From Guillardia theta CCMP2712 (lineage: Eukaryota; Protista; Cryptophyta): a stretch of 64,000 nucleotides of DNA. The DNA lies in assembly GCF_000315625.1 (NCBI RefSeq), contig NW_005434624.1, positions 451,100-515,099 of the forward strand, written 5' to 3'. Positions 7,201-32,399 of this stretch are shown piece by piece. How positions within the stretch are numbered: the stretch's first letter is position 1; the number at the start of each line of letters is the position of its first letter. The position numbers were made by a program, and so were the translations under genes. The notes beneath the pieces were generated by a model. That model had not been told where the DNA came from, searched no databases, and saw only the letters and a list, made by a program, of their open reading frames with translations.

Positions 7201-10200
7201 TAGTCACGCACAACTTGAACGACTCAAGCAGGCCGAGCTCCACCGAGACTCCGAAGCTCTTGATCAAGAGCCTTGAGATGGTTTCCTCGACCTTCGACGC
7301 CATTGCAGAGTCCTCGGAGTACTGCAGCATGTGTCGAACTTTGCAGATGTTGATGCTGATCTCCTTCTGCGCCTTCTCTTTCACCTGCTCCTTAGTCAAG
7401 GCCAGCTCGTGGAACTTGGGTTGGAGGGCCGAGTAGGCATGCCAGAAGGAAGTCAGCTGCTGGAAGTCAAGGTAGTATTGATCCGAGATGTCTCGATCGA
7501 TCTCCTCCATCACCAGTCTCTCCATCTCCTTCATCCAGCCAGACACGATCTCACTGATCCCGCTCACATCTACCTTGCAATGTGATGCCAGTCCGTTGCG
7601 AAGGTTGATCAACATGTCGTATCGGTCGATCAGCTGGACAAACTGCTTTGTTTGGATGAAGTTGTAGATCTCAGGTTGTGTTTGTACCATTTGCAGACCT
7701 TTAGCAATCATCGGCATCTGATCTTTGTACACCTGTGACTCCGAACCTTCAAGGTCTCGCAGCTCGTTCAGGTACTGGACGAGCTTGTCTTGATCTTCGC
7801 GATTATGGTTGGCGAGCACAATGACAAGCTCAGAGATCTGACGGCAAAGTGATGCTCTCTTCTTCGCTCTCAACTTCTCTTGCGCCTTCATCTGTACCTT
7901 ACGGAAAGTCTCCTCAACCTCGCCAACTCTCTCATAGTAGTCATCTCCCAGTGATTTGAACATGCGCAAAAAGTCTCTCAGCTCTGACACAACACTCTCC
8001 GGATAGCCGAGGTCCAGCAGCTCGTAAAGCTTGTTGACGTTGAAGTTGAAAGAAGTCAAGACCTCGAACATTTCCTCGATCACGCTGCTTGCGTTCTCTA
8101 TCGACATCAGAAGCTTCGCAAACTTGTGATGGGTGATCTTTCTCTGCATGTCGAGCTCTTTCATGTGCCGCTTCGCATCTTCCTCAAGGTCTCTCAGCAT
8201 GTTCATCTTGTTCCTCTCGATTTCACTCTGCGCAGACTTGGCGTGCGACACTGCCAACTTCATTCTGGTCAACTTGTTCTCGGGTCCATATCGCAGCTTC
8301 TGCTCCAACCGCTGCGAGAGAAAATGAGGGCTGGAGCGAGTGATGTCAACAGCCAGTTCAGACATTCCGTGACGAACGTCATCAGCAAAGATCTTCAAGT
8401 CTTCCATGATGGTTTGTCGAGTATCGTTGATGACACACATCTCCACAAACGTCTCTAGGAATTCATTTGCTTGGCTTGCCTTCTGCTCTTGAAGACTTTC
8501 ATCCTTTTCCTGAAGGTCTCCCAAGATTTGACCGACTTGAGCGATGAGTTCAGTTTCGAAACCAAAGCTCGTCAAGCTCGCAAATTCATCGAGAGTCGGC
8601 GGAGCTTGCAAGATCTGCTTGTAGTGCCTCATAGCCGAGGTGTACATTGACTCCCTCAGCTGGTTCATTAGGTTGTCAAACTTGGCCACTATCTGCCTGC
8701 ATTCAGCATCAAGTTTGCTACAGAATTGTTTTGCCTCCTCAATGAGAGCAGAAACGATAGTGCTCTTCTCGATCTCGAGCTTCTTCAACTTCAGCTGAAC
8801 TCCAGGCAAGTCAGCCTTGAGGCTTATTGTTTCCCTCAGCCTCTCATGCTCTGGCACTGAAGCGATCAGCAGATCCTCAGCTGACTTCCCTTTCGCAATC
8901 TCAGCGGCGAACGACTGCATGCTGTTTCTCGTTCGCTCCAGGAAGGCCTTGTAGGAGTCGGAAAGCTCTCTGAGACCTTCCTCTGCAAAAGCTCGACCCC
9001 TGACTGCCACCAAGAACTCGTTGATTTCATTCAGACGCGCGTCCATAGCGCTGCTGTCCGTGTCTTGTAACTTCCTCATGGCGTCAGAGAGCTGAGAAGT
9101 TGAGCTTGCATCGAAGCCGAGCCCGCTCAGACCCGCTAGCTCCTCGACAAGGACTGGAGTCGTCAGGTTTTTGAGAATCGTCATGTACGCCGAGTCGATG
9201 ACGTCAGCAGCTTGCTTGTCAAGGGAAGCTAGTCCATGGGTGACTCGATCCTCTGCCTCTCTCTTCTCTCTCTCCTTTCCTTCCAAGAACCTTTTGGCTG
9301 CATTCAAGACGTCCTTCAAGCAGTCGTCCCTTTCAACCTCCAAATATTTCTCTAGAGTTCGCGCCTCTTTGAAACTGTCGTACCTCCGAACGCTCTTCCA
9401 TGATGCCTCGTAACTCTCGTGCTCTGTCAGCACTTGCAGCAGGAGGGCAAGTGGATTCTCGCTTGAGAGAGTGTTGGCAGCAGTACAAGCGATGTCTTGT
9501 TGTTGTCTGTCCTTGAACTCCTCGTGAATCTTACGAATGTCTCGCGCACTACTATTGATTTTGAGTCCCACTGCAGTCTCATACACCTCCCTGTAAACGG
9601 CCTGCAGTTGTTTTGACTTGACATCGTAACTCTCAGGATGATCTTTCTGCAAACTTTCTAAAGTTTCCCATACATCGAAAGTTTGAAAAAAGCTCACCTG
9701 CGGGCAAACGAGCGATCAGGTTGAAGAGAGAGAGAAAAGAAGCAAGTCACTTACTGAGGGTGTAGCAGAGACGTCGATTTCCCCCTCACATAGAGACTCG
9801 AAGTTGTGCTGCACTGTCTGCCGAGCATCTGTCTCTAGCTTCTGCAGACTTTCATCGAACCTCTGGCACAAGACTGTTCTCTTGCTGATGTGAACAACTT
9901 CTGTGAAGAGCAGGACTATTGCCTCCTCATACTTCCTGATTGTCTCTCCAAGCGAGCATTGGTCGCCATACAGGTACCTGTCATTCGAGGCTCGCTCTGA
10001 AAGGAGGAGGTTTGCTCTTGCAAAGGCGTTTGCGAACTGTTGGACTTCTTCGATGGTGGAGTATTGCCGCAACAGCCCCTCCATACCTTGTTGCACATCG
10101 CAGTGAAAGAAGCTCTCAGGGTCTGACTGGGCAAGCTGGTGCATCTTCTTGTTGAAGTACGAGGAGCATGACGCAAAGACGTTTTTCAGCTCAAGGTTCT

Positions 10201-13200
10201 CTCTCCTTTGCTCCCTCCCCTCCTCGTCTCTGATTTCCTTGGAGCATTTGTCGAGCCTGCTTTCAATGTCCAGATCCGGCACCAAGGTGTCGAGACTCTC
10301 CGCGTCTCTAAGCAGGGTCAGGTGATCTCTCAGAGTCTTTCTGCCCTCACTCGTCAAGTCCGATGCCTTGGACCTTATGATGACCTCCCACTGCGTGATG
10401 ACATCTTTGACCATCTCGACGATCTTGCTGTAGTTCATCTCTACCTCTTGGTTCCTGATGACCCTCAGGCTCTGAAACGTGTAGAGCAACTGCTGGACCT
10501 GACTGAAATCGCCTTCTCTCATGGCGACTGCAATGTCTTCGGAGGTCACCTGGGCGATCTTTGACACGAGGAGCATGTCTCTGTCTGTCAGAGGCGTCTG
10601 GAACGAGCGCTCACTCGCGCGGATGGGTGCGATCGAGCCCAGCAGAGATATGAGCTGGGCTCGAGTGATGCCCTCGGGGTTGCGATCAAGGGGGTCGTAG
10701 ATTTGAATCAGATCCTCGTTGCCCTCCATCGACAGCCCGTGACCGTTGAGGAACTTAATCACGCTGGCCCTCACGAAGGAGATCGGGAACTCGTCGACAT
10801 TGGAGGCCTTGGACACGCACCAGAGAATGCTGTGAAAGTGTTGTTGGATCCTCTTCTCCTCTCCTCCAAACAGCTTCTTCAGGATGCTGATGGTGTTCTG
10901 GATGCTGGAGCCTCGGCCGGTATCGATCGAGTGCGCGTCAAGAACACAGATCATCGTTATGCCGTTTTCCTTAGAGGCCTCCAAGAGCTTCGAGAGGTTC
11001 ACCGCGTTGGATATGTTGACCTCCGGCCCGTTAGTGTCGTCAAACCCTGGGGCATCCCATAGCAGCAAAGCGCTTTCCGTCATGCTGATGGGGCGAAGAA
11101 CTTCAGTCTGCGACTGACCCAGGACGTGACCGATGTCTGTCACCGCGTCAAGGGGACCTCCCTCGCTCACTCCGACGACGCAGAGAGAGTTGGGCTTGAG
11201 ATGCTTGCCCTCGCATTCTTCCCTCGTGACCCTTCTCAGCTGGCATCCAGCAAGGCTGTTGGTCAACGTGCTCTTACCACTACCAGTCACGCCAAGTATC
11301 ACAACGTTGCGTTTCCCATGCGCGCTGACGTTCTCGTCGATGGTTCCACCGCAAGATATCAAGTCATGGATCTTGGAGATGCTGCCGCGAATCTCTGCCT
11401 TGTCGCAGTGCCTCAGCATCCCTCCTGCTCCTTGAACTGCAGTTTGTGACCAAGGGTCCGAGGACTCTAACAGGAGTCCTTCTGTCTGCACAACCGTGTG
11501 TGGAGGGTTGTCTTGATTGATCAAATCCAGATGCTCATGGGTTTCATCGGCCTGCATGAAGTCTTCGGGCATGATAAAAGTGTTTGCCTCTGGGGTTACT
11601 TGTTTCGATGCAAAGTCTTCGAGCAAACTTGTGGGCAACTTGACATCTGGTAAGCAGCAAGAAAATGCGGATATCCAGAGACGATACCAAATCACCACAA
11701 GATACTTCGAGGTGAATTCAAATGTCCTCGTTTCCAGCATCCTGCAGAACTGAAGCTGCAACTTGCGCGGAATGTGAAATCTCAAGCCTTCAAAGACGAG
11801 TTGGACATCTCTGGTACTTTCAAAGTGTTTTTCATGCAAGTCATGCACTAGTGCATGGATTGCCAGTGCTGTTAGCATGCTTGGCTCTACCATCACTTCC
11901 TCGAAAGCCCTTCGCGTGAATCTGACGAACTCAAACTGAGGAGCTTCCGGAGTTGAAAGAACCTTGCGGTGCTTGTCAGCTTCCACACTCAGATAATTCA
12001 TCGCCAAGTGTCGATCTGCGGTGGCGAATTGTTCTCGGAGGAGATGGAGAGCTTGAGTCGCTTTGCCCTTGACGACCGCTGACCCCCAGCATGCCAGCTG
12101 CATGAGAACTTCCACGTTCTTAGATCGAATTCGCCGGATGAATTCTTCTTCCGAACGCCAGAACATGAGAGCTCGACTGAGCATTCCACTTTGATTGAAC
12201 TCAAGAGGAAATTCAAGGAATTCGACGACCTCGTCCTGCAAGTCTGGAAATCGAAAGCTGGCGTTTAGTGCGAGCTCGAAACAAGTGAAGCAGATAGTCC
12301 AATCCTTCCTGGGCTGACCTCGAGCAGCGCACAGCCTTAGGATGTGGAATGTTTCATGCAGCCATGCCCTACATGAATCCTTGTCTACCAACCCACTAGA
12401 GTCAGGCTCATTCAAGATGATCTCATTGTAGAGCTCGACCAGAAGCAGCTTCACTGAACTTGCTGTCTTGTCGTCCTGCGCCGCCGAATCAACAACTCGA
12501 ACACAATGTTTGAGTCCACGAGTAGCAAGCCAAGTCACGTCCTCACACTTTCCGTGCCTTGCACCTTCAGCTCTTGACATCAACTCCGTCAGTCCATTCT
12601 TGAGCAGTCCCTTTGACGTGCTTTCCAAGAATTCTTTGGTCAAAATAGCGTAATGGAGCGCGTTGTCAATCACGAAGAGATTCAGTCTGCAATCTGCTAT
12701 GTCTTGAAGATCACTTGAACTTCGCAGGTTTTTAGCAGCCGTAAAAAGAGCTTTCATACGGCCAGAAAGAGACTGAAGGCACTGCTCCTGGCAACTTCGC
12801 GAGTCGTCGTTAAGTTGTGCGCAATGCAAAGCTAGTCGTTTCGTGATCCCGAAGATCCGCAGCATAATTCCTGGCCGGAAATCATTCTTCTCCATGCTGC
12901 TTGCAAGAGAGCTCAATTGGATGATCATGGTTCTGTTTGATGCATCTTGCGCACTGCTGAAACGTTCCAAACTCGAAAAGTGAAACAATTCTGCGAGAAT
13001 TTCTTCATTGGATGCAATTTTCATCATGCTCTGTAGTTGTTCAAGGCAGCATATCATTCCAGATTCCTGAGGGTTCGAAGTCGAAAGGATCAGATCTGAG
13101 ATTTTCTTCAGGCGATTCAAGCTTACGAGGACCTCAACACCGATCGAAGGGATTCCAAGTTCTTTGTTGCCACCTTTCATTCCACTGCCATTTTCGATCG

Positions 13201-13363
13201 CAAGGTTCGCATTTCTTGCTTCGTTGTTGGTTTCGAAAGTTTCCTTGCCTCTTTGATCTTTGAGCATGTTGTGTGAGGCCTCCAAGTCAATCTTGGGTCT
13301 CTTCGTGGAGCAGCTCTCGTCTGCCAGCAAGTCATTAGTACACGACATGGCGATATCGTTCAT
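4247..13363 (-). CDS. Giant ~3019-aa protein: TRAFAC-like P-loop GTPase + coiled coils + SecA-like SF2 helicase + C-terminal vWA; 2 exons (13363-9755, 9697-4247)
   Basis: A single phase-0 57-nt intron (9698-9754, GTAAG...CAG) joins the 1215-aa and 1816-aa ORFs. GTPase motifs: GVTGSGKS, LWDAPG, CVSKA. SecA-type helicase motifs: QINTGEGKS, LLMDEVD, GMTGT, YGRGTDF, QIYGRTCRQ. vWA motifs: CFVMDCTGSM, VAYRDY, GGSDGPED. Confidence 0.85.
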
Positions 13364-14128
13364 CTGGACTCACCCCTGCTCGATCCCAGCTCACCCGCCA
13401 GCTTCGCATCAGCTTCGCATCTATCTTCTGGAGTGTGAGAGCCCTCCAGCTGCTTGTCCTCGATCTGCCCGCCATGCCGTGAGCGCTTCATGCCTGACAT
13501 GCACGGGTTCTGAGCTAGGAAGTTGCTCAAGACACCTCCGCCTCCCCCGCAACAAAAGTACTGATCTTTAACTTAACTTTCAGTTCGTGGCTCACCGGCC
13601 CAAGCGGCGCCAGCCTACTCTCACTGAGTCACTACGGTAAAAGCCGGGCGCCGGGCCCGGCCCGAACTTTGAGTTAAACCTCGGACTCTCGGAGACTCTG
13701 GAGAAAAGTTGGCTCAAGTGACTCGCCGGTCCGATCACGCGGGGCCGGGCCGCTCTGACGCGGCTTGGGCCGGCGGGCCCGGGCCGCCGCACGGTTAATG
13801 AGTGGCGGAGCCTGCCGCTCTCCTTCTCTTTGTATTTCCTCCTCCTTACCACTATCTTCGCTCTGAAATCATTCAAAACATTTACTCGAAGCTGGGTCGC
13901 TCACTAGCTATCAGTGCTGGAGTACACTCAGGCATGCCTTGACTTGTACATCCCTCCAAGCCCCCAAGTGTTCAATCGGCTCTAAGCGATGCATCATCAG
14001 ACTATGATGACAGATCACGCGACTTGTCATTGAAAATTGAAGCCTTCAACCAATCTCATCTCATCTCATTCCATCCCATCCCATCCCATCCCATCTCTTT
14101 TCGTCTCTTTTCTTCTCTTCTCTTCTCG

Positions 14129-20001: not shown

Positions 20002-21612
20002 GTAGAGCTATGGGATCTAGGTAGGATTCAATGTATTACACATTTTTTTCTGTGAGGTTTATAGTTCAAACTATAGATTGGACTTGGCGAAAATTCATGC
20101 CGGTGGCGATCGAAGGAAGATAGATCGCAATTGTTCTCAGTCTGCTGTTTGTTCCTGACAAACCAAACAATGCATAACATAGGGAAATCATTTCTCCATC
20201 GATTGTCTAGGCTTGTATTCTCTAATTATGCAATATGAGAGTAACAAACAGCATTGAACCTCGCTTGATGGAAGAAAACCTCTACGACATATGCTTGTTC
20301 TGAACCTTGTAGTCATCTGATCATGGCATGGGACGTTTGATCGAAGCAATTCAAAAAGTTATTCTGGAAACAATGCACTGACTTCCATGATCATGGCTGA
20401 ATATCGACAATCGTTCAGCGTATTCAAGTACTTTTATTCCATGTTCAAAGAAAACATCATCCTGACTATTCTCAACGACTTGATGCAGATGAGCCTGAGT
20501 TCTTCTTGAATTTTTTCCTTAACTTCTTCACGAATGTATTCCATTTCAATTGCCCTCTGCGGAAACTGTAGCCCGAGTCTACATTGATCCAACTGTAGAA
20601 AGACGACTCATACTTGACAAAAATCTCCTGCGATTCCCTGAACATGCGCCTGACTCCGGTTCCTCTTTTCAACTCTTCAAACCTCCTTAGTTCTGTATCC
20701 CTCTCGTCTGCATCCTTGTCAGCTAGCACGTTGTTGATATGCTGCTCAAAACATTTCACGAGAAACTTCACGTCTGAACGTCGCTTTGTATTGCTTTGTC
20801 CAGGCTTCAACTCCCCTGCACAAACATTTTTCAAAGGGGGAATTTGTCTTTTCTCGTTTCCACAGAACCACAAATTCCATGCCGATAATGGGGTTTCCAG
20901 CTCTTCTGTCAAAAGTACTTCTTCCAGAGCCGACGCGCTTGCCCCAACTGCTTCATCAATGGAACCACCCGTGTCTCTGCTCTCATTCACTCCAACAGTG
21001 TCTGCCGGTATTACGGTGCGCTCCTCTCTCCTGCGACCAGACTCAACAACACTCTGACCTGAAGCCTCGGGGTCCCTTTGCTGAACATCTCTCTGTGATC
21101 CACTTGCTTCCCCTCCCGTCTCCATAATCACCTCCCGTATGATAGCTTTGAACTCATCTCGATTCTCTAGCAAGCCTTGGCGAAAGAAATCCTTTGCTGA
21201 TTGTCCACACTCATTTGGTATGAAACCAACTTGTCGCCTCTCCGAACTTGAAACTCCTTCTGCCAATGCCTGGTTGCCCCGGCTAGATTGCTTGAACTCC
21301 AGAACTTCTCTTTGTATTTTTTCTAGGGACGCCACAACCTTGTCATTGTGGACATATTGATGAACGTGTGGAGGAATGCCTGTCGCTTCCATTCTGCCTC
21401 TTGCTTCCTTTGGCATGCAGCAAACAACCTTTGATTTCAAAGTATTCAGCATAGCTTCGTCCTGAAACAAGGTTGACTTCCAAAGAGGATGATTCCTCTG
21501 CAAATTCGTTCTGAGGAAGTCTGCATGGTATAACACGGATGCGAGTGCAAACTCCGCAACTCCATACATGCACATGGGTAATGTTGGGAACAGCATCTGA
21601 ATCGCACTTGTG
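20002..21612 (-). mobile_element. Truncated copy (3' 1611 bp) of the Crypton at 28786-32218, lacking the catalytic domain
   Basis: Near-identical to 28786-30396 (constant offset 8784) with only a handful of substitutions. Identity stops abruptly after ...ATCGCACTTGTG at 21612. Confidence 0.9.
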
Positions 21613-21892: not shown

Positions 21893-24519
21893 TACCTGCC
21901 CTTACCTTCGTTGCTTGCCCCATGTCCACCTCATTTATTTCTTCCTCCTTCCCCCCATGGGGCCAACAGCTCCGCTCCGCCTCTTGTCCACCTCTAAGAC
22001 TTGACTCGAGCCTCAAGCGCGCGAGGGGCCTGCACCGGCCTCCTCCTCCTCGCCCTCGCCCTCCTCAGCCTCCATGTCGACTTCCTCCCTCATCATCAGC
22101 CGCAGTCGGTCTTGCTTGTCGACCTTGCCCGTGCAGCTCAACCCATGGTGCTCAGCAAATTTACTGATCGCAAGAAACAAGAGGCTTACAGATCGACTCT
22201 CGATGTCATCGCTCTCGGCCTCCTGCTCAAGCGCATCAGTCGCTGCTGCCCTTGGAGAGAAGGCGCTGCCCCTCCTCGCTGCCTTGTTCCCTTGCACCCG
22301 AGTCCAGCGCTGCTCGCCGAGGTACGCTCTGAGCTTTTCTTTCAACATGTTTCGCTTCGATCCCAGCGTCGGCGTGGCTGCCCAAGCTCCGAGCGTCATG
22401 AACTCCACGTTGCCCGGCGAGCAGAAGGTGTCATGCAGCTTCCCAACACTCTTGTCTAGCTCCAGAGAGATCGGCTTGCCAGCTAGCAGCTCCTCCTCTG
22501 ATGTCTCCAAGAGCATCGTCGAGAGGTCGACCAAGACCTGTTGATCGACTGGCCCTGACGGCGACGCTGCTTCCATGGTGATCCTGTCGATGTCGCTGAG
22601 CTCCAGCCATCCAGCGCCTTGCTGCTGCCCTTGGGGCTCTTGGGCTTGCTCCTCGCTGCTCGGGCTCCTCTCCTCCTCATGCTGAGGCCCGTTGAGCTTG
22701 AACCCCACCGCTTCGAGCTTGACTTCCAGGATCCCTTCCAAGTAAAAGGGCATGTCGTCCATCAGCGTCGAGCGTCTGCCTTGGTCGCCAGGGAGAGAGC
22801 TATCGAGCTTCCGTCCCAGCTGAGCGTGTCACGATCCTCCTCGACCTCGACGCTGACCGGCGTCACGCCTATCCTTCTTGCTAACTCCAACATGGCTCGC
22901 TTGACTCTCGTGATCGATGTGTTACCTCCTCCGCACAGCGCTTCCATCTCCTTCCTCGAGAAGCGGCCTGTGCTCATGCTTGACCTCGACTTGATCTGCA
23001 CTCTGAAGCTGCTGCGCCCCGCATGATCTCTCTCGCGAAGTGCCCTCCTCTGCTTGGCGATCTTTCCCCTAGGAACGAAGGTGTCGGCTGTGAGCTCGAC
23101 TGCAAACGTCTCTCTGAGCTTGGCGTCGTCGCTGATGAGAGTGAGATGCACCCCCTCCATCGCCTCGCTCTCTCTGAACGAGGCCAAGGTCTGCTCGCAA
23201 CTTGCCGTCGAAGGCGAGCTGAGCACCCACTCCAGCTCTTTTTGCTGGAGAGTTCCCGTACTTGCCCCAACAGCGACATACGTCTTCGGGCTCGGCCCCT
23301 TGCGACCTCTCTGCCCAGCACCCTGCACGAGCATGCCTGCAAGCGGTTGTACCTCTGCGGCTGCAAGAGATTGCGAGAGCAGCTGAGATCGATAAATCTG
23401 AGCGATCTCGGCCGTCGACATTCCTCCGAGAGCTAGGAGCTGTGATAGCTCGGCAAGGCTCCCTCCCTTGCCCCAAGGTCCTCGCTTGGCTCGAAGCTTG
23501 AAGGACCGGTCGTGTGCTATGCTCACCTCTGTGGCTCGAAAGACTCTCCCTTCGATAGTGTATTCTCTCCTGCCTTCCCATAGCTCCATGGCTGCTTCAT
23601 TCCGAAGGAAGGAGACGGTGACTGAGATGTCGTCTGCTCGTGCTATCTCAGGTCTGTAAGGTGCTTTCCACATGATGGCCTTGTCGACTCCATCGACTGA
23701 GTCTACCATGAGACCTAGGTCCATAAGCTTCGTTTTCAACTTTTCTTCTTGTCGAACAAACATCGAGGAAATCCCTAGGAGAGTCATGGAGATGAAGGAG
23801 GTCCCCTCGGTGCCTTCGGTGCCGATGTATGTCTCGACATTCTGCTTCTTGGCCTCCTCCATCTGTTGAATAAACCATGCTTTCGACTCTGAGCTCCATT
23901 CGCTCAGAGAGTCTTCAAACAGGTCGCGTCTCGCCTGCCGACATGTCGAGCGGATGGCTTCAGCGATAGCGTCGGGAGTGCATCCCCCCTCAGCTCTGCA
24001 AGCATAAGCTGTCCGACTATTCGGATAACGCTTGGTGAAGTTCTTCACCTTCTCGACGAGGTCGGCGGCCTCCTCGACGTGGCCTCCTGAGCGCTCACCC
24101 TGCGTGTATTGGCATGATCTCCGATACAGCAGGTTGCGAACGCTCTCATCATACTGTAGTACCATGCTTAGAAAGCTGTTTGAACTATATGAACCTCTTG
24201 CTCGCAGCTTCCACCGGTCCCCTTGCGCTCTCCCTACGCGCCGCAGGGCCGCATGCTCTTACTAAGGGCCGGCTCTGCTCTTACTAAGGGCCGGCTGCTC
24301 TTACTAAGGGCCGGCTTGCTCTTACTAAGGGCCGGCTGCTCTTACTAAGGGCCGGCTCTGCTCTTACTAAGGGCCGGCTGCTCTTACTAAGGGCCGGCTG
24401 CTCTTACTAAGGGCCGGCTGCTCTTACTAAGGGCCGGCTGCTCTTACTAAGGGCCGGCTGCTCTTACTAAGGGCCGGCTGCTCTTACTAAGGGCCGGCTG
24501 CTCTTACTAAGGGCCGGCT
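21893..24519 (-). mobile_element. 5' portion of a probable non-LTR retrotransposon: 5' tandem array, short leader, and intronless ORF1-like region (24165-22762 and 22762-22013) running into the gap
   Basis: Long intronless coding region in an intron-rich genome, with an E/G-rich tail and a tandem array at the 5' end abutting telomeric repeats. No RT or endonuclease is visible (would lie in the gap), so the class is inferred. Confidence 0.5.
24255..24519 (+). repeat. Tandem array, 13 copies of GCTCTTACTAAGGGCCGGCT (20 bp)
   Basis: Direct reading. Units are identical, with CT, T and CT inserted after units 1, 3 and 5. Confidence 0.97.
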
Positions 24520-24612
24520 CCTAAACCCTAAACCCTAAACCCTAAACCCTAAACCCTAAACCCTAAACCCTAAACCCTAAACCCAAAACCCTAAACCCAA
24601 AACCCTAAACCC
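24520..24612 (+). repeat. Interstitial telomeric tract, ~13 x CCCTAAA with two CCCAAAA variants
   Basis: Direct reading. Variants at 24582 and 24596. Confidence 0.97.
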
Positions 24613-25012
24613 TTTCCTTCCACTTCTGTCGCCCTGGCGATGCATGCGATGCGATGCATGCTGTTATGAACGCTAAAATCTGATGGTTACGTGAATAGGT
24701 CGGCTAGAGCAGTATCTGCATGAAATATTAGCATAGCGAAGTCATCTAAAGTTGCATGCAAGTGGGAACATACCTTGAGGGAGGAGCATGAAGGAAAGAC
24801 GCTGGACAGTGCCCGAGGACAGTGCTCGAACTGTACAACGGCACAAATTCAAAGTGAAGTTGGGGTTGACTAAACATTAGTATTGGAAATTCAAATTTCA
24901 CTGACCTGATGGGTAGATTTGAAAGTATGTCGGTTGAATATTTCAACACTTCATAGGAGGTTTGCAAAAAAGTTCAGGGCATGACGAAGTTACATATATA
25001 CATCCAACGCGA

Positions 25013-25615
25013 TCAATCTTTATAAAGAGGGGGGGATAAGATTTTTGGAATTTCTTTTAACTCATATTTTTGCTTTATTGCATAGAATCCATCATCACGC
25101 AACACACCCGCACCAATAGCGCATCCGCCTTCATTGCGAAAGTCTATATAATCGAGGAAATTTGATGAAGTCTTTATATACGGGCAATAAAGAAAGTAAT
25201 GATGTGAGCCGTTGGGCGTTGAGACTTGAAAGGTTTGAACATCATCAATTAGTTTTTCAATATCATTATCTCGTTCTTCAGCTTTGGCAATGTCAAGATC
25301 GATGACGGTTAAATTATTGACCTTACCAGTAAGGACAGCATATTTAACTGCCTTCTCTCTATTGATCGTTGATTTAATTTCTTTGTGCCATATCTTTAAT
25401 GTCTCTTTGATGTGTGTCTCATCCTTTTGCCACTCAGCAGGAAAGGCATATTTCTTTTTGATGATCATATTTGACTTGAATTTTTTATTTTTTGGATCAT
25501 TTGGGTCTTTGGGATAAAGTGGCATACATTTAAAGCCTAGCTCATCCCTGATATATTCAAAGTCTTCAATGGCCTTTTCAAGGAGATATTCAGCAGAGGG
25601 CAATTTTTGGGGCAT
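25013..25615 (-). CDS. Bifunctional primase-polymerase (Prim-Pol/AEP) domain protein, probably C-terminally truncated
   Basis: Motifs YAVLTGKVNNLTVIDLD, VSTPNGSHHYFLY and IDFRNEGGCAIG are typical of Prim-Pol N-terminal domains. No helicase follows. Confidence 0.8.
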   Translation of the reverse strand: MPQKLPSAEYLLEKAIEDFEYIRDELGFKCMPLYPKDPNDPKNKKFKSNMIIKKKYAFPAEWQKDETHIKETLKIWHKEIKSTINREKAVKYAVLTGKVNNLTVIDLDIAKAEERDNDIEKLIDDVQTFQVSTPNGSHHYFLYCPYIKTSSNFLDYIDFRNEGGCAIGAGVLRDDGFYAIKQKYELKEIPKILSPPLYKD

Positions 25616-25767
25616 CCTTTTATTTATAGGTGAGATTTTTATTTTGTTATTTTATTTATCGATTTTATTACTTTATATCATTTTTTCCTCAAAATCGGCA
25701 AAATTCTTGCAATTTATTTTTGTTACTATTATACAAGTAACAAAATAAAAAAAGACTGTATCAATGC

Positions 25768-25968
25768 TTAATCTGATGATCTATTTTCTTTTTCTGCCTT
25801 CTTCCTATAATAATATTCTAAGGACTTTTGTTTGATCATATTTCTATATTCTTCGTCATTTAAATATTTGTTCTTTCTGAATTCCTTAATCCTTTCAACC
25901 TCTCTATTGTGAAAGTCTTCATCGTTGTTAAATCTCTTATAGTAATATCGAGCTTGTGCTTTTGCCAT
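25768..25968 (-). CDS. Small K/R/Y-rich viral-type hypothetical protein (66 aa)
   Basis: ORF with YYYKRF...EEYRNMIKQKSLEYYYRKK, co-oriented with neighbours and preceded by a TATATA-rich spacer. Confidence 0.6.
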   Translation of the reverse strand: MAKAQARYYYKRFNNDEDFHNREVERIKEFRKNKYLNDEEYRNMIKQKSLEYYYRKKAEKENRSSD

Positions 25969-26075
25969 TGATCGAGTTTCTACTTATATATAAGTAAGAA
26001 AGTTTTTTCACTTATATATTAAAAAAATAATCAAATCATTTTTATATAAATTGGGGGGTTTAGGACGAATTGACC

Positions 26076-27965
26076 TTATAATAATCTTGATTTCCATATA
26101 TTGCCTTCTTTGTATAGTTGATATGTTATTGTGCTTGCGGTTGTTGGCTTGGCATTTCCACCAGTTGCAATGATATCATTCAATCTTTTAACTATCTTTC
26201 GAGCTGTTATTTTGTCCTTGTTATTTTCGTATTGCTGTTTTTTCCTATCTAATATATCGGCTTTCTTATTATCATAATATTTCTTTTGTCTTTCGCGCTC
26301 TGATATGCGAGGGTCTTTTATAGGTGGTTTTATTGGTTGCCTTATTGTTGGCGAAGCCAAGCGTAGCGTAGGTTGTACTGACTCGATAGATTGAATCTCA
26401 TCGGTTGGCTCTTGTTTAATTCTCACAGCTGCAGGGGGTGCAGGCTCAAGCTCAATCAATCCTTTCTCTTGCTTTATTGTTATCATCTCATTTTTAGACA
26501 ATGATTTTTTATATGTTGCTTGTTGTTGCATAACTGAGTTCCTCATTTTTAGGGCGACGTCCTGCAAAATCTTGTTTGGTGTATTGTTCTGATATAACCA
26601 CGTAATAAATGAAGATCTGAACATATTGACGTTCAATTGATGCTTATCAAACATATATTTTAGATATGTTTGCATATTTGCCTTTGCTGGTTTATTTTTA
26701 TCTTTTATTTGTGTTATGAAATATTCACGAGGATATAGGGCATAGCTCTCACGAATGAAATCACTTAATTTAAAAGCAAATGATGAAAGATTCTCGCTTA
26801 TCTTTGCTTTGGTGTTAATCATATAGCCGACAAAGTACCTTATAGCTCCGTGCTTTTTCTTATCCTTATTGAATACATATTCACATAGCTTTGATTTGTC
26901 ATTTGGAATATAAATATAATCTGTGTTGTTATTAAGATTATTCAATGTGCTTGTAAATTTACAATCTGACAATTCAAGCCTTACCGGTGGCGTGTATAAA
27001 TACGCTTGTAAAATTAAGGCATACATATGCAGTTTATAAGTTAAGGGGTCATTTTTACCTTTGTTTTTGAGTGATTCTCTAAATTGTTTATTCATTTCTT
27101 CAACAAGGTCAAGCAATGCACCATAAGGAATAAATTTTAATTCTTCATACTTATTGAGTTGATTTTTTCCTTCTTCATCCTTAACAATTGCAAAATCGAA
27201 ATCGGTCGCAAGTATCACAAGTTTTTTATGCAATTCATTATCTGGACCAAATGCAATCTTAAACAATCTAGCAAAATCGTATATATCATTTCTAATTGTG
27301 GCGACTGATTGGCCCTTGTTAAATCTGATGATTAATATCCTATTTAAAAGTTTTCTATGGTTCTCTATAATCCATTTAAGATCTTGCAAATCTTGCGGCA
27401 CATCAGGAACATTCTTTATTATAAAATTCACCATCGAGACAACCCTTTTATCAGATTTCACGGGTCCAACATTGGCATATTTATTTTGTTTCAAATCTTC
27501 CAATGTAGGCACAACATTATATTTTATCTTCTTATATTGTTCTGGTGTATAGTCTAGCTTATATATTCCATTAGTCCAGGCGTTGGGGCCATTAATATAT
27601 GAATTAATACTTTCAACCATAGCCTCGAATTTATCCCATAGTGTAAAGGCTTTAGTTGCATCCGAGAATTGATTGAAATCAAGCAATTTTAAAGAGTTTT
27701 CATAAGCTTGAGAGCTGGCATCATTCATAAGCTTAAGCTCTTTGTAAAATTCAATATCACGGGGCGCCTTGTTGATGCTCTTTGCTTGTGCTGGTTTGGG
27801 TTGGCGCAGCAAGGCTGCTTCGCTGCCGCGTGTTTGCTTTGGCTGATTTTGTTTTGGTTGCTTTGGTTGATTCTTCGATTTCTTGGGCTTTTGTGCCTTT
27901 GGAGCTTTAAAGTTGTCTGGCTTGAACTTCTGAACTGGTTGAGGGTTTCTTTTTTGGCGATTCAT
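26076..27965 (-). CDS. Tyrosine recombinase of the virophage/PLV (OLV11-like) type, 629 aa
   Basis: YTPPVR (catalytic R), FNKDKK (K), NVNMFRSSFIT (HxxR-equivalent), ALKMRNS and ATYKK (Y). Basic N-terminus and C-terminal KKYYDNKKADI-type basic repeats. Confidence 0.75.
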   Translation of the reverse strand: MNRQKRNPQPVQKFKPDNFKAPKAQKPKKSKNQPKQPKQNQPKQTRGSEAALLRQPKPAQAKSINKAPRDIEFYKELKLMNDASSQAYENSLKLLDFNQFSDATKAFTLWDKFEAMVESINSYINGPNAWTNGIYKLDYTPEQYKKIKYNVVPTLEDLKQNKYANVGPVKSDKRVVSMVNFIIKNVPDVPQDLQDLKWIIENHRKLLNRILIIRFNKGQSVATIRNDIYDFARLFKIAFGPDNELHKKLVILATDFDFAIVKDEEGKNQLNKYEELKFIPYGALLDLVEEMNKQFRESLKNKGKNDPLTYKLHMYALILQAYLYTPPVRLELSDCKFTSTLNNLNNNTDYIYIPNDKSKLCEYVFNKDKKKHGAIRYFVGYMINTKAKISENLSSFAFKLSDFIRESYALYPREYFITQIKDKNKPAKANMQTYLKYMFDKHQLNVNMFRSSFITWLYQNNTPNKILQDVALKMRNSVMQQQATYKKSLSKNEMITIKQEKGLIELEPAPPAAVRIKQEPTDEIQSIESVQPTLRLASPTIRQPIKPPIKDPRISERERQKKYYDNKKADILDRKKQQYENNKDKITARKIVKRLNDIIATGGNAKPTTASTITYQLYKEGNIWKSRLL

Positions 27966-28047
27966 CCTTTATAATATATATAGATAATTATTTTTCTTAT
28001 GTAGTTTTATGTCTCCTTACATACAAAACAAAAATAAGATCATTTTT

Positions 28048-28159
28048 TTATTTATCATATTCTTTTGATCCTTTTTTGACTATGCACCAAGTGCCAGAAT
28101 GACCTTTATTGAACTCTTTGAGAGCTTGAATCCAGGTGTTGCCTTTTCTAGGTACTCAT
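28048..28159 (-). pseudogene. Frameshifted small PLV/virophage-type ORF (VPRKGNTWIQALKEFNKGHSGTWCIVKKGSKEYDK)
   Basis: Manual translation. The ATG at 28159 is one base out of frame with the W..ALKE.N.G...WCI.KKG..EY motif, and the stop falls within an A-run. Confidence 0.5.
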
Positions 28160-28244
28160 TTATAATAAAGAAAGATAGATAAAAAATATAGTTTTATTAA
28201 GTTAGAAATAATATATATATAGTATAATAGAGTATATTTTGTTA

Positions 28245-28595
28245 GGCGAAGGGAGGCGAAGGGGTGGCGAAGGGGAAGGCGAAGGGGGACCGTCAGTATG
28301 TTTTAGCTGGGTACAAGGGTAAAAGAAGGGTAAAAAGAGGATATATAGACGTTAGGCGAAGGGGCGAAGGGTGAAACTCAATTTTTCAGGATAATATATA
28401 TTTTTGTTACTTCATGAGGTATATAAAATAGAATATGAAAATAGAATTTCACCCTTCGCCCCTTCGCCTCCCTTCGCCTAAATAAATTATGCAAGTTATA
28501 GAGCCAAAAAATAAAAGAAAAGAATAATTAAGCCGTGTGTGTGGGCGAAGGGTGAATATTGGCGAAGGGTGAAATTCAATTATTGCCCCTTCGCC
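28245..28595. repeat. 12 copies of GGCGAAGGG in both orientations, including a perfect 23-bp inverted repeat around an AT-rich spacer
   Basis: Forward copies at 28245, 28255, 28266, 28278, 28355, 28363, 28544 and 28561; reverse copies at 28452, 28460, 28470 and 28587. Inverted repeat arms at 28354-28376 and 28447-28469. Confidence 0.9.
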
Positions 28596-28785
28596 TCTTT
28601 TGTTACTTATATAACCCTTGAAGGATTCATAATTTTCATAGATATTATGTTTGCTCTGGCCCACTCCGTGGGTACGCTCGTTTATATTTGGTTATATTGT
28701 GTAATAATGCGCAGCAATGTGCAGCCACGATTTACATTAGGCATTTTTGTTACTTATATAATATCATAATTTGCATTGATATTAT

Positions 28786-31700
28786 GTAGAGCTATGGGAT
28801 CTAGGTAGGATTCAATGTATAACACATTTTTTTCTGTGAGGTTTATAGTTCAAACTATAGATTGGACTTAGCGAAAATTCATGCCGGTGGCGATGGAAGG
28901 AAGATAGATCGCAATTGTTCTCAGTATGCTGTTTGTTCCTGACAAACCAAACAATGCATAACATAGGGAAATCATTTCTCCATCGATTGTCTAGGCTTGT
29001 ATTCTCTAATTATGCAATATGAGAGTAACAAACAGCATTGAACCTCGCTTGATGGAAGAAAACCTCTACGACATATGCTTGTTCTGAACCTTGTAGTCAT
29101 CTGATCATGGCATGGGACGTTTGATCGAAGCAATTCAAAAAGTTATTCTGGAAACAATGCACTGACTTCCATGATCATGGCTGAATATCGACAATCGTTC
29201 AGCGTATTCAAGTACTTTTATTCCATGTTCAAAGAAAACATCATCCTGACTATTCTCAACGACTTGATGCAGATGAGCCTGAGTTCTTCTTGAATTTTTT
29301 CCTTAACTTCTTCACGAATGTATTCCATTTCAATTGCCCTCTGCGGAAACTGTAGCCCGAGTCTACATTGATCCAACTGTAGAAAGACGACTCATACTTG
29401 ACAAAAATCTCCTGCGATTCCCTGAACATGCGCCTGACTCCGGTTCCTCTTTTCAACTCTTCAAACCTCCTTAGTTCTGTATCCCTCTCGTCTGCATCCT
29501 TGTCAGCTAGCACGTTGTTGATATGCTGCTCAAAACATTTCACGAGAAACTTCACGTCTGAACGTCGCTTTGTATTGCTTTGTCCAGGCTTCAACTCCCC
29601 TGCAGAAACATTTTTCAAAGGGGGAATTTGTCTTTTCTCGTTTCCACAGAACCACAAATTCCATGCCGATAATGGGGTTTCCAGCTCTTCTGTCAAAAGT
29701 ACTTCTTCCAGAGCCGACGCGCTTGCCCCAGCTGCTTCATCAATGGAACCACCCGTGTCTCTGCTCTCATTCACTCCAACAGTGTCTGCCGGTATTACGG
29801 TGCGCTCCTCTCTCCTGCGACCAGACTCAACAACACTCTGACCTGAAGCCTCGGGGTCCCTTTGCTGAACATCTCTCTGTGATCCACTTGCTTCCCCTCC
29901 CGTCTCCATAATCACCTCCCGTATGATAGCTTTGAACTCATCTCGATTCTCTAGCAAGCCTTGGCGAAAGAAATCCTTTGCTGATTGTCCACACTCATTT
30001 GGTATGAAACCAACTTGTCGCCTCTCCGAACTTGAAACTCCTTCTGCCAATGCCTGGTTGCCCCGGCTAGATTGCTTGAACTCCAGAACTTCTCTTTGTA
30101 TTTTTTCTAGGGACGCCACAACCTTGTCATTGTGGACATATTGATGAACGTGTGGAGGAATGCCTGTCGCTTCCATTCTGCCTCTTGCTTCCTTTGGCAT
30201 GCAGCAAACAACCTTTGATTTCAAAGTATTCAGCATAGCTTCGTCCTGAAACAAGGTTGACTTCCAAAGAGGATGATTCCTCTGCAAATTCGTTCTGAGG
30301 AAGTCTGCATGGTATAACACGGATGCGAGTGCAAACTCCGCAACTCCATACATGCACATGGGTAATGTTGGGAACAGCATCTGAATCGCACTTGTGACCA
30401 TCCCTGACGAGTCAGCTTCTTTGAAATGCGGCGGAAGAATTGCAAACTCTGATGAGTCGATGGGAAGCCCTGTTATAGTACGTCCAACAAATGCATCACC
30501 TGCTGCTTCATATCGTAGATACGTGTTGAAAACTGCTCCATTGGACCATCCCGCTCGCTCCGACACGGCACTGCTCGATGGACAGTGAGTACTCCCGGAT
30601 GAACAATAAGTTGCTGCCCCCTTCCTAATAGAGTGACTTCCAAGATCCTCTGGTTGTAAACCGAGTGAACGCAGATGGGCAGTAACTGCAGTCTGAACTG
30701 CATCCATACCATTATGATCATCATGCCTTTCCGCGGTCTCGTCAGTGTCAGAGGGACTCGGGGCTGCTGATTGATTCGGTGGCATCATTATTTTTGAAAG
30801 AACCTGCATGAAACGCTTGTATTGTGATCTGCCTGGAAACAGGGACAGTTCATCTGGTAAATAGCAAAGCAAATAGATTCCTAATGCCAATATGGGACAG
30901 ATCTCAGGATAAACTGGATTTGCATAGACTCTCCTGGGGTCTCTAGGCTTGTCACCGCTCTGATCTGTTTTCGAGTGAGCAAAGAAAATTTGGAGATGAT
31001 CTTCATTCCAGCACATGTGGTTGAACTGAATAGATTCGGCGTTTCCAGCGCGACACATAAGATTCCAACAAATGATGAGAAAGGTGCGAGCGAAAATGTA
31101 ATTTCTCTTGTCGGAAAACATCATGGTTTTGCAAAACAAACGATAGGTTGTCATGCTCATAGGTTCTTTGCCTGTTGTTATCTTCAGTACACCCGTTGCA
31201 TCCATCTGATTCAGATCTTTCTTGAGGCCAACATAGAATTCTTGAAGAGCATTCTTGAATTCCACCGGTAGGTCTTTCTGAAAATCTCTGAAAAAGCTGT
31301 TTATTGCCGATCGATGATTACTGTAAGTTGCAAAACCATTGTTCGGTGAAACGCTGAGCAGATGCGTGATCCACATACAGAAATAGTCTGCGTCTAATTG
31401 ATCGAAATGAATCGGGTAAACTCTTGGGGCATTCCCTGTTTCAATGCTTCAGAGAAAAAAATGCCATAAATGGCAACTTCTAACCTGTCCAAGATACAGA
31501 ATTCTCGTCCAGTACCGTTCGTATGATCCTCTTCGATGGTAATGGTGGATCTCCTTCTTCCATATCTCTTTCAATCAAATCTTTGAATTCCATTGTCAAC
31601 AGAAAAGGATTGTTTCGATACACGAACTGTATAAAACGGACAACGCTAGATGTATATGCAGCTCTTGAATTTTGCGAAACCCTTTTCGATCGGATTTCTG

Positions 31701-32218
31701 AGATTCTTTGTCCCACGAGCTGCATCCAATGGTTGTCGGGCCTCGTTACCTGTTCTCTGACGTTTTCTTCGGCCCCCGATTTGAGGCCTCGGTGTGGCCT
31801 CTCCTGGAATTACAACTGCTTCCTGGACCTGCATGTCCTCCAAAGGATCGCCTTCATCTTCGTTGACATTCGGAGACTCTACTTGGCTTACCTCCTCCAT
31901 TTCATCTTCAACTTGTCTCTCAGCCTGTGCTTCCATCCCACAAAGAAATGTGCGCTCTGACTCCTACCAGAATCCTCCCCGTGTTGAAATGAACCCGTTT
32001 GCACGAGCAGACAGAGTACCCTGGGTACCCTAGTTAACTCCTTCCAAATTACCCCTCCTGAGTTTGGTTTCAGCATAATGACCTTAGTAGAGAAATGAGA
32101 GTTCAATATTTGAATATTTACTTGAAAAGTTTCAAAAAACACTCCCAAACAACAAGAGCTTCAACCTAAAGACATGTCCTAATCCTAAACTGTAGGATTC
32201 AAGCTAAAGCTCTAGTAG
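28786..32218 (-). mobile_element. Full-length Crypton (tyrosine-recombinase DNA transposon, CryptonS-like); right boundary inferred
   Basis: Left end defined by identity with the second copy. Right end suggested by TAGAGCT...AGCTCTA inverted ends, a GTAG direct repeat and GTAGGATTCAA near both ends. Confidence 0.8.
29256..31936 (-). CDS. Crypton tyrosine recombinase with C-terminal GCR1-like DNA-binding region; 3 exons (31936-31750, 31697-31485, 31435-29256)
   Basis: Motifs WNLMCR, HSKTDQ, YANP..PEICPILALG, LGSHSIRKG, RAGWS and NTYLRY. C-terminal AWNLWFCGNEKRQIPPLK. Introns 31698-31749 (52 nt) and 31436-31484 (49 nt) restore one continuous frame. Confidence 0.88.
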
Positions 32219-32233
32219 GCCTGATTAGGCCCG

Positions 32234-32399
32234 CCTCAGAACAATCCGACTCGTCCCGAGGCGGGCCCGTGTAAACCGGTAGGATATTTTCCTTCTTGGA
32301 ATCCTCCCAAAGTACTATAAGTTTTCGCAAGTTGCGACGCATGGAGAAGAGGGGTGGTTCGTTGAGCGAGACCGAAATGATCATCGGATGGTTCTGAGG
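32234..32399. repeat. 166-bp element bounded by 16-bp inverted repeats (MITE-like or structured RNA)
   Basis: CCTCAGAACAATCCGA (32234-32249) versus TCGGATGGTTCTGAGG (32384-32399), 15/16 complementary. Confidence 0.45.

What the first reader, a model, noticed from the sequence alone, without database searches (positions are those of the whole stretch)
25013..28785. Endogenous PLV/virophage-like module: Prim-Pol + tyrosine recombinase without capsid genes
Seen: an abrupt shift to AT-rich, intronless, tightly packed genes encoding a Prim-Pol domain, a 629-aa tyrosine recombinase and tiny basic ORFs. Known: this gene set is typical of Polinton-like viruses and virophages that integrate using an OLV11-like tyrosine recombinase, and such elements can protect protists from giant viruses. 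Inference: either the terminal fragment of a provirus or a minimal capsid-less integrative replicon (origin + recombinase + primase), analogous to a transpoviron.
Basis: partly seen in the sequence, partly recalled or inferred. Interest (0 to 1): 0.7.

Follow-up and report, generated by a model that had tools for sequence, protein, structure and literature searches.

The report
Broken end of Polinton-like provirus
A 3.75-kb AT-rich stretch in a protist genome holds an intact recombinase gene and only the first fifth of a primase-helicase gene, and is likely the broken-off end of an integrated Polinton-like virus of a kind already known from cryptophyte algae, so the lack of capsid genes here says little.

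Summary
In detail: a 33% GC island (25037-28786) carries, on the minus strand, a repeat-rich end, a 629-aa tyrosine recombinase (Cre-like fold), a 66-aa basic ORF and a Prim-Pol ORF. The Prim-Pol is not a whole gene. It breaks after residue 193 of a ~900-aa Prim-Pol/PriCT-2/SF3-helicase (88% identical relative) and is joined to an unrelated repeat 420 nt from a telomere tract. So this copy cannot replicate itself, and the missing capsid genes are uninformative. The recombinase is not OLV11-like in the strict sense: it belongs to the family of the Guillardia theta PLV recombinases, which the literature calls distinct from OLV11, and whose three complete PLVs carry capsid, ATPase, primase-helicase and recombinase. 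One metagenome contig shows that in a close relative the helicase gene is followed by a second, direct copy of the end repeat, bracketing a ~5.7-kb unit; the same layout is published for the PLV Gezel-14T. Best reading: a truncated PLV end module (0.65). A capsid-less, repeat-bounded element stays open (0.25), because no full-length relative could be read. The recombinase gene to the right is a separate Crypton-like transposon.

The parts
25037..28786 (-). Whole viral fragment (PLV-type end module), 33% GC; left end is a break, right end abuts a Crypton-like element
   Evidence: GC; left junction; right boundary from the repeat shared with 20003-21612
25013..25615 (-). Truncated primase-helicase gene: Prim-Pol domain only (residues 1-193 of about 900); last 7 codons and stop are flank DNA
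   Evidence: Pfam PF09250; P0009 901 aa, 88% identical, with Prim-Pol, PriCT-2 and SF3 helicase; the missing part has no match in the window
25718..25745 (.). Short palindrome made of a 9-nt motif that recurs three times in the end region (28402, 28598, 28745); role unknown
   Evidence: 5 of the 6 exact copies in the 64-kb window lie in the module
25768..25968 (-). 66-aa basic helical ORF
   Evidence: 40% identical over 60 aa to the C-terminal extension of G. theta GUITHDRAFT_145933, so the order recombinase then small ORF is conserved
26076..27965 (-). Intact 629-aa tyrosine recombinase of the G. theta PLV family
   Evidence: Fold; R329, K370, R450 in 54 of 54 and Y485 in 52 of 54 aligned homologues; tree
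28236..28597 (.). Repeat and hairpin region, likely the origin and/or recombination site; a second direct copy follows the helicase gene in a relative
   Evidence: 12 copies of a 9-mer, 0.45 expected; hairpin z -7.4; joint 28536 to 25036 in run X6
28651..28708 (.). Short terminal motif found with many unrelated flanks in other contigs
   Evidence: loose ends on both sides in X6 and X7, highest depth bin in all of X1 and X6 over the module
24614..25036 (.). Neighbour, not part of the module: multi-copy repeat between a telomere tract and the break
   Evidence: two X1 contigs leave it at 25037 into other sequence; telomere tract 24520-24613
28787..32275 (-). Neighbour, not part of the module: Crypton-like tyrosine-recombinase transposon (right end approximate)
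   Evidence: second partial copy at 20003-21612, 99.4%; Atlas hits with NDC10_II and GCR1_C, score 0.96; no Pfam or PDB hit

Best explanation
This stretch holds an end repeat, an intact tyrosine recombinase, a small basic ORF and a cut primase-helicase gene, and is likely the terminal replication-integration module of an endogenous Polinton-like virus related to the Guillardia theta PLVs, left behind when the rest was lost. Shown: the gene content, the break after codon 193, the family of the recombinase, related copies in the host-labelled DNA run, and a second direct repeat after the helicase in one relative. Inferred: in the intact virus the primase-helicase would load at the hairpin/repeat region, and the recombinase would act on the ends to excise, circularise and integrate the genome; capsid, minor capsid and ATPase genes would lie beyond the second repeat. 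Inferred: this copy was cut by a break that joined it, over a 2-nt overlap, to a subtelomere-like repeat. It cannot replicate alone, though its recombinase could still act in trans.
For: Break: identity ends at residue 193; nothing of residues 194-901 in the window; flank continues elsewhere. Family: P0004 (GUITHDRAFT_145933, 40%) and Hanusia phi P0006 fall with the window protein in a 10-row clade, SH-aLRT 100, quick tree of 40 rows. A second G. theta homologue is split into an N-half (EKX38471, query 1-268) and a C-half (EKX38473, query 287-626) two accessions apart on a 410,101-nt scaffold, which fits the Copia-interrupted recombinase of a G. theta PLV in PMC4642659. That paper puts these recombinases near the element ends, with AEP-S3H in 2 of 3 elements. 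Table S6 of PMC12220804 lists capsid, minor capsid, ATPase, primase-helicase and recombinase in 3 of 3 G. theta PLVs, PF09250 in 1 of 3. A distant member of the recombinase family sits beside an SF3 helicase and a capsid gene in L012. The direct-repeat bracket is published for Gezel-14T (PMC11296320). In X6 the two repeat copies differ and have equal depth (76.9, 77.8), near the primase (77-83) and recombinase (100) contigs, which fits a linear element with two copies rather than a one-origin circle. In X7 a contig leaves the repeat into 1,126 nt of other DNA. P0002 and P0009 each lie on a 12,236-nt contig, twice the cassette.
Against: No capsid gene was seen linked to any close relative (66-90% identity): none of their contigs could be read. 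That the split G. theta gene is the one in the paper rests on the matching description, not on a locus view. Close relatives mostly sit on short contigs (1.5-3.2 kb; 6.6-7.4 kb for P0159 and P0005). In viral collections the family is mostly a lone gene: 21 of 22 loci had no primase-helicase or capsid match with the queries used, and most look like giant-virus DNA. Contig depths are rough, and the X7 exit could also be host DNA.
Confidence: 0.65

Rival explanations
1. The family is a capsid-less mobile replicon of about 6 kb: direct repeat, recombinase, small ORF, primase-helicase, direct repeat. It would excise as a circle, copy itself with its primase-helicase, reintegrate, and travel in the capsids of helper PLVs or giant viruses. 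The window holds a cut copy.
For: X6 contig: primase 25189-25036, then 2,235 letters (2,127 needed for the rest of the gene), then a direct match to 28536-28357. Several divergent copies in X1. Repeats that bracket replicase modules and possibly mobile AEP-SF3 genes are reported in bioRxiv 10.64898/2026.10.13.758929.
Against: The same bracket occurs inside a capsid-coding PLV. The named relatives belong to capsid-coding PLVs. Short contigs are expected when repeats break short-read assemblies. The joint rests on one contig of one run.
Confidence: 0.25
2. The DNA is a fragment of a giant virus (Nucleocytoviricota) genome taken up by the host.
For: Distant homologues (27-40%) are lone genes in contigs labelled GVMAG or of giant-virus content; top BFVD structural hits are algal giant-virus proteins.
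Against: The closest relatives form a separate clade with cryptophyte proteins; in those loci the recombinase has no primase-helicase beside it; the flanks here are host genes.
Confidence: 0.05
3. The recombinase is a hairpin-telomere resolvase (protelomerase) and the element a linear hairpin-ended replicon like phage N15, the hairpin region being its resolution site.
For: TelA ranks first in Foldseek (E 1.1e-3); long inverted repeat upstream; primase-helicase partner.
Against: On realignment Cre and XerA lead (Z 13-14) and TelA is not among the 50 entries shown; no Pfam telomere-resolvase hit at E<=1; the hairpin is an imperfect stem with a 52-nt spacer, not the perfect palindrome such enzymes use (recalled).
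Confidence: 0.03
4. The segment is contamination or a misassembly.
For: A 100-N gap lies 3 kb to the left; both neighbours are repeats; no contig bridging either junction appears in the rows shown (tables cut).
Against: Held at 0.54-0.83 of words by 5 runs of 2 studies under one species label; zero-difference contigs at depth 111-181 against 67 for a 12,272-nt flank contig in X1; no phage or prokaryote homologue of the recombinase. X1 may be the source of the assembly.
Confidence: 0.02

Closest known systems
Guillardia theta PLVs, elements 1-3 (PMC4642659; PMC12220804 Table S6)
   Same: Same recombinase family (40% to GUITHDRAFT_145933), small basic ORF right after it, recombinase near the element end, primase-SF3 helicase replicase.
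   Different: A separate subfamily (40% identity); this copy is cut and has no capsid, minor capsid, ATPase or second end.
PLV end modules: Gezel-14T (PgVV), CBEV_PLV1, AHEV_PLV2 (PMC11296320)
   Same: End repeat, tyrosine recombinase and primase-helicase clustered; direct repeat in the terminus and again just after the module (Gezel-14T).
   Different: Gezel-14T has an OLV11-like recombinase, a TVpol-type replicase and a GIY-YIG gene; in the entomopoxvirus PLVs the helicase lies between the repeat and the recombinase.
Transpovirons (PMC3671162)
   Same: Small size; capsid-less, if the rival reading holds.
   Different: Transpovirons are linear plasmids of mimiviruses with an SF1 helicase, a Zn-ribbon and a transposase subunit; here an SF3 primase-helicase and a tyrosine recombinase.
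Crypton transposons
   Same: Eukaryotic tyrosine recombinase; a Crypton-like element is the right neighbour.
   Different: Not similar in sequence to the module's recombinase (no window self-match; not hit by the L012 recombinase); the module also codes a replicase.

Membership tests
Polinton-like viruses | Major capsid, minor capsid and packaging ATPase genes | tested here: not met
   None in the window with L012 queries or Pfam; but the copy is cut, so this is a fragment and not a whole PLV.
Polinton-like viruses | Capsid module in full-length copies of this subfamily | not testable with these tools
   No whole genome held; no close locus in 8 viral and 2 metagenome scans; contigs of P0002/P0009 could not be read.
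Polinton-like viruses | 15-30 kb with terminal inverted repeats | tested here: inconclusive
   One repeat-rich end only; no second copy in the window.
PLV end module | End repeat, tyrosine recombinase and primase-helicase clustered | tested here: met
   helicase part from relatives.
G. theta PLV recombinase family | Homology and common clade with the G. theta PLV recombinases | tested here: met
   40% identity, clade support 100 in a quick tree, split G. theta copy as described in the paper.
OLV11-like recombinases | Close homology to OLV11 / PgVV ORF3 | tested here: inconclusive
   No OLV11 sequence was compared. PMC4642659 calls the G. theta family distinct and only distantly related. Structural hits include Aureococcus virus and a Qinghai Lake virophage protein at 14-15% identity.
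Tyrosine recombinase superfamily | Cre/Int fold with R-K-(H)xxR-(H/W)-Y residues | tested here: met
   Z 13-14 to Cre, rmsd 7-8.6 over 250-280 residues; R329, K370, R450, Y485 conserved, both His positions Asn (role of each residue assigned from the recalled motif order).
Transpovirons | SF1 helicase, Zn-ribbon and transposase subunit | tested here: not met
   The helicase of the close relative is SF3/D5-type; no such genes in the island.
Virophages | Virophage capsid, ATPase and cysteine protease | tested here: inconclusive
   None in the island; full-length copies not seen; relatives point to PLVs.

The most novel reading that the evidence does not exclude
A family of about 6-kb capsid-less elements in cryptophyte-like algae, bounded by direct repeats and coding only a tyrosine recombinase, a small basic protein and a primase-helicase: the PLV end module living as an autonomous or satellite replicon, multi-copy in its host and found in freshwater and marine samples. 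It would be the free form that models of PLV replicase turnover predict.
Probability: 0.25. Interest if true: 0.6.

Novelty: new member of a known kind. Interest (0 to 1): 0.27.

Why it matters
As a cut PLV end it is ordinary: protist genomes hold thousands of such elements. Its value is as a pointer to a multi-copy subfamily that capsid-based searches would miss in fragments, and as a second case, after Gezel-14T, of a recombinase plus primase-helicase cassette bracketed by direct repeats. If full-length copies turn out to lack capsid genes, it would give a culturable system to test whether PLV end modules move on their own.

Tried and rejected
No whole genome is held. Scans of viral contigs for close relatives found none: recombinase alone, P0009, the P0009/P0010 alignment, two DNA motifs of the end region. 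Metagenome scans: none for the recombinase alignment; 2 loci for P0009, both phage-like at 28%. Prokaryote genomes: none; phages: none for the recombinase, 775 records at about 25% for the helicase domain only. PDB sequence search gave nothing. Rfam gave only sub-threshold miRNA hairpin matches to the inverted repeat, rejected as generic. The tblastn extension of P0009 to 24818 crosses two stops and is spurious. RNA: no RNA holder listed; in raw reads of X14 (about 6 in 100 read) the module had depth 0-0.43 against 27 at the Crypton end, with no host gene as control and strain unknown, so no claim on expression. X7 had no cover on the primase: no claim. The careful tree did not finish; the quick tree is used. 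An estimate of gene proximity from accession arithmetic was considered and left out. Earlier-findings look-ups by sequence and place were empty. The host lineage was not tested with host genes; 'cryptophyte-like' rests on the viral proteins only. A capsid query against the contigs of the close relatives could not be run, so their gene content is open. Supplements of the bioRxiv preprints were not seen and may list such elements.
Full report
Observation. GC drops to 0.32-0.35 over 25-29 kb: 0.334 for 25036-28786 against 0.50-0.54 for the host flanks, which carry eukaryotic genes such as MYST and KAT11 acetyltransferases, SHMT and a polycystin channel (7 of 9 ORFs... 8 of 9 scanned had a Pfam hit). 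Three minus-strand ORFs are real: 629 aa (26076-27965), 66 aa (25768-25968) and 200 aa (25013-25615). The last 820 nt are non-coding and hold 12 copies of a 9-mer (0.45 expected, 0 of 100 shuffles) that fold into a long hairpin (z -7.4).

The recombinase. Pfam, NCBIfam and PDB sequence searches give nothing. The AlphaFold model (mean pLDDT 66, 9 sequences) matches Cre, XerA and lambda integrase (Foldseek E from 1e-3; Z 13-14). In 54 aligned sequences (the window, 7 hits, and the 46 hits P0012-P0069 that have 400 aa or more) R329, K370 and R450 are invariant and Y485 is in 52. The two usual His positions are Asn; the roles are assigned from the recalled motif. The gene is intact.

Its family. 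One search found 8 homologues: three unnamed at 66-89%, G. theta GUITHDRAFT_145933 at 40% and Hanusia phi at 41%. One search found 183. A quick tree of 40 rows puts the window protein in a 10-row clade with these (SH-aLRT 100). A second G. theta homologue is in two halves, EKX38471 and EKX38473, on a scaffold of the same length. Yutin et al. 2015 (PMC4642659; passages, sections 5 and 8, a search of the supplements and part 1 of file 2 read) say that the three G. theta PLVs code a distinct recombinase only distantly related to OLV11, near the element ends, one copy broken by a Copia element, and that two have AEP-S3H. I infer that these are the same genes. Bulzu et al. 2025 (PMC12220804; abstract, passages, section 11, rows of Tables S5 and S6) list capsid, minor capsid, ATPase, primase-helicase and recombinase in 3 of 3 G. 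theta PLVs. The 66-aa ORF matches the C-terminal tail of GUITHDRAFT_145933 (40% over 60 aa). So 'OLV11-like' should read 'G. theta PLV type'.

The primase is cut. A search for longer proteins found P0009 (901 aa, 88%) and P0010 (938 aa, 74%) with Prim-Pol, PriCT-2 and, in P0009, a D5/P4-type helicase. Identity stops at residue 193; residues 194-901 have no match in the window. Two X1 contigs follow the left flank to 25037 and go on into other sequence, so the flank is an independent repeat, joined over a 2-nt overlap (read). A telomere tract of 13 units lies 420 nt further left. On the right, 28787 begins a Crypton-like element with a second partial copy at 20003-21612.

What follows the helicase in relatives. 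One 2,578-nt contig of run X6 runs through the primase, goes on for 2,235 letters (2,127 finish the gene) and then matches 28536-28357 in the same direction. The cassette is thus bracketed by direct repeats about 5.7 kb apart. A second X6 contig enters the same region from 28627 at equal depth (77.8 against 76.9), and the two copies differ, so each element seems to have two copies; a one-origin circle fits less well. In X7 one contig runs from the repeat into the recombinase (depth 11.3) and another leaves the repeat at 28243 into 1,126 nt of other DNA (depth 8.6); only 30 letters of it are shown, AT-rich. This may be the body or other end of a PLV, or host DNA. Barth et al. 2024 (PMC11296320; passages, section 8 and part 1 of section 9) describe PLV end modules and a direct repeat of over 300 bp in the Gezel-14T terminus and again after its module. 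A 2026 preprint (10.64898/2026.10.13.758929; passages and section 13) reports repeats bracketing replicase modules and suggests that they move alone. The layout is therefore known; of 5 paper searches none listed a paper on a capsid-less element of this family. Passages only were read of PMC10120064, PMC3671162 and 10.1101/2022.07.28.501842.

Wider context. Of 22 viral loci with distant homologues (ORFs listed for 16), one, L012, is PLV-like, with a capsid hit (Capsid_N, E 1.5e-4, below cut-off), an SF3 helicase and GIY-YIG beside the recombinase; its ATPase is my reading of a Walker A motif. The other 21 had no helicase or capsid match with these queries, and those viewed look like giant-virus DNA.

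Reality of the locus. Five runs of two studies under one species label hold half or more of its words. In X1, exact contigs have depth 111-181 and divergent ones 57-79, against 67 for a long flank contig: several related copies, as far as contig depth can tell. No shown contig bridges a junction, so local misassembly is not excluded. No phage or prokaryote homologue of the recombinase was found.

Verdict. A cut PLV-type end module, 0.65; a cut copy of a capsid-less, repeat-bounded element, 0.25; others 0.10. This copy cannot replicate alone. New member of a known kind; interest 0.27.

Noticed in passing
window 22013-24613: Interstitial telomere tract (7-nt unit x13, 24520-24613), a 20-nt tandem repeat x13.5, then two stop-start-coupled minus-strand ORFs (467 and 249 aa) with no Pfam, NCBIfam or confident Atlas hit, running towards a 100-N gap. 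May be the 5' part of a telomere-associated retroelement.
   Followed up: partly
window 28787-32275 and 20003-21612: Crypton-like transposon with an intact-looking recombinase ORF and a partial second copy; multi-copy with internal deletion forms in X1, about 97% identical contigs in freshwater run X6, and a pile of sense-biased short reads at 28772-29068 in RNA run X14. One paper search for Cryptons in cryptophytes listed only a PLV paper.
   Followed up: partly
window 28651-28708: A 58-nt motif with a small hairpin appears with many unrelated flanks in X6 and X7 and at the highest depth in X1; it could be a terminal or attachment motif shared by several elements. No exact match in viral contigs.
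   Followed up: partly
L001-L004, L007-L011, L013-L024: Members of this recombinase family occur as lone genes in giant-virus-like contigs, at a conserved position in several (L002-L004; L013, L016, L020, L023), suggesting a fixed viral role such as genome resolution.
   Followed up: no
window 4247-13369: Two adjacent, very long intronless ORFs (1822 aa with SecA-like helicase and VWA domains; 1217 aa with a P-loop GTPase-like motif), possibly one gene or a mobile cassette.
   Followed up: no
P0006, P0014, P0033, P0053: Four Hanusia phi entries match the recombinase (32-41%); these entries are, from recall, transcriptome-derived, which hints that relatives are expressed.
   Followed up: no
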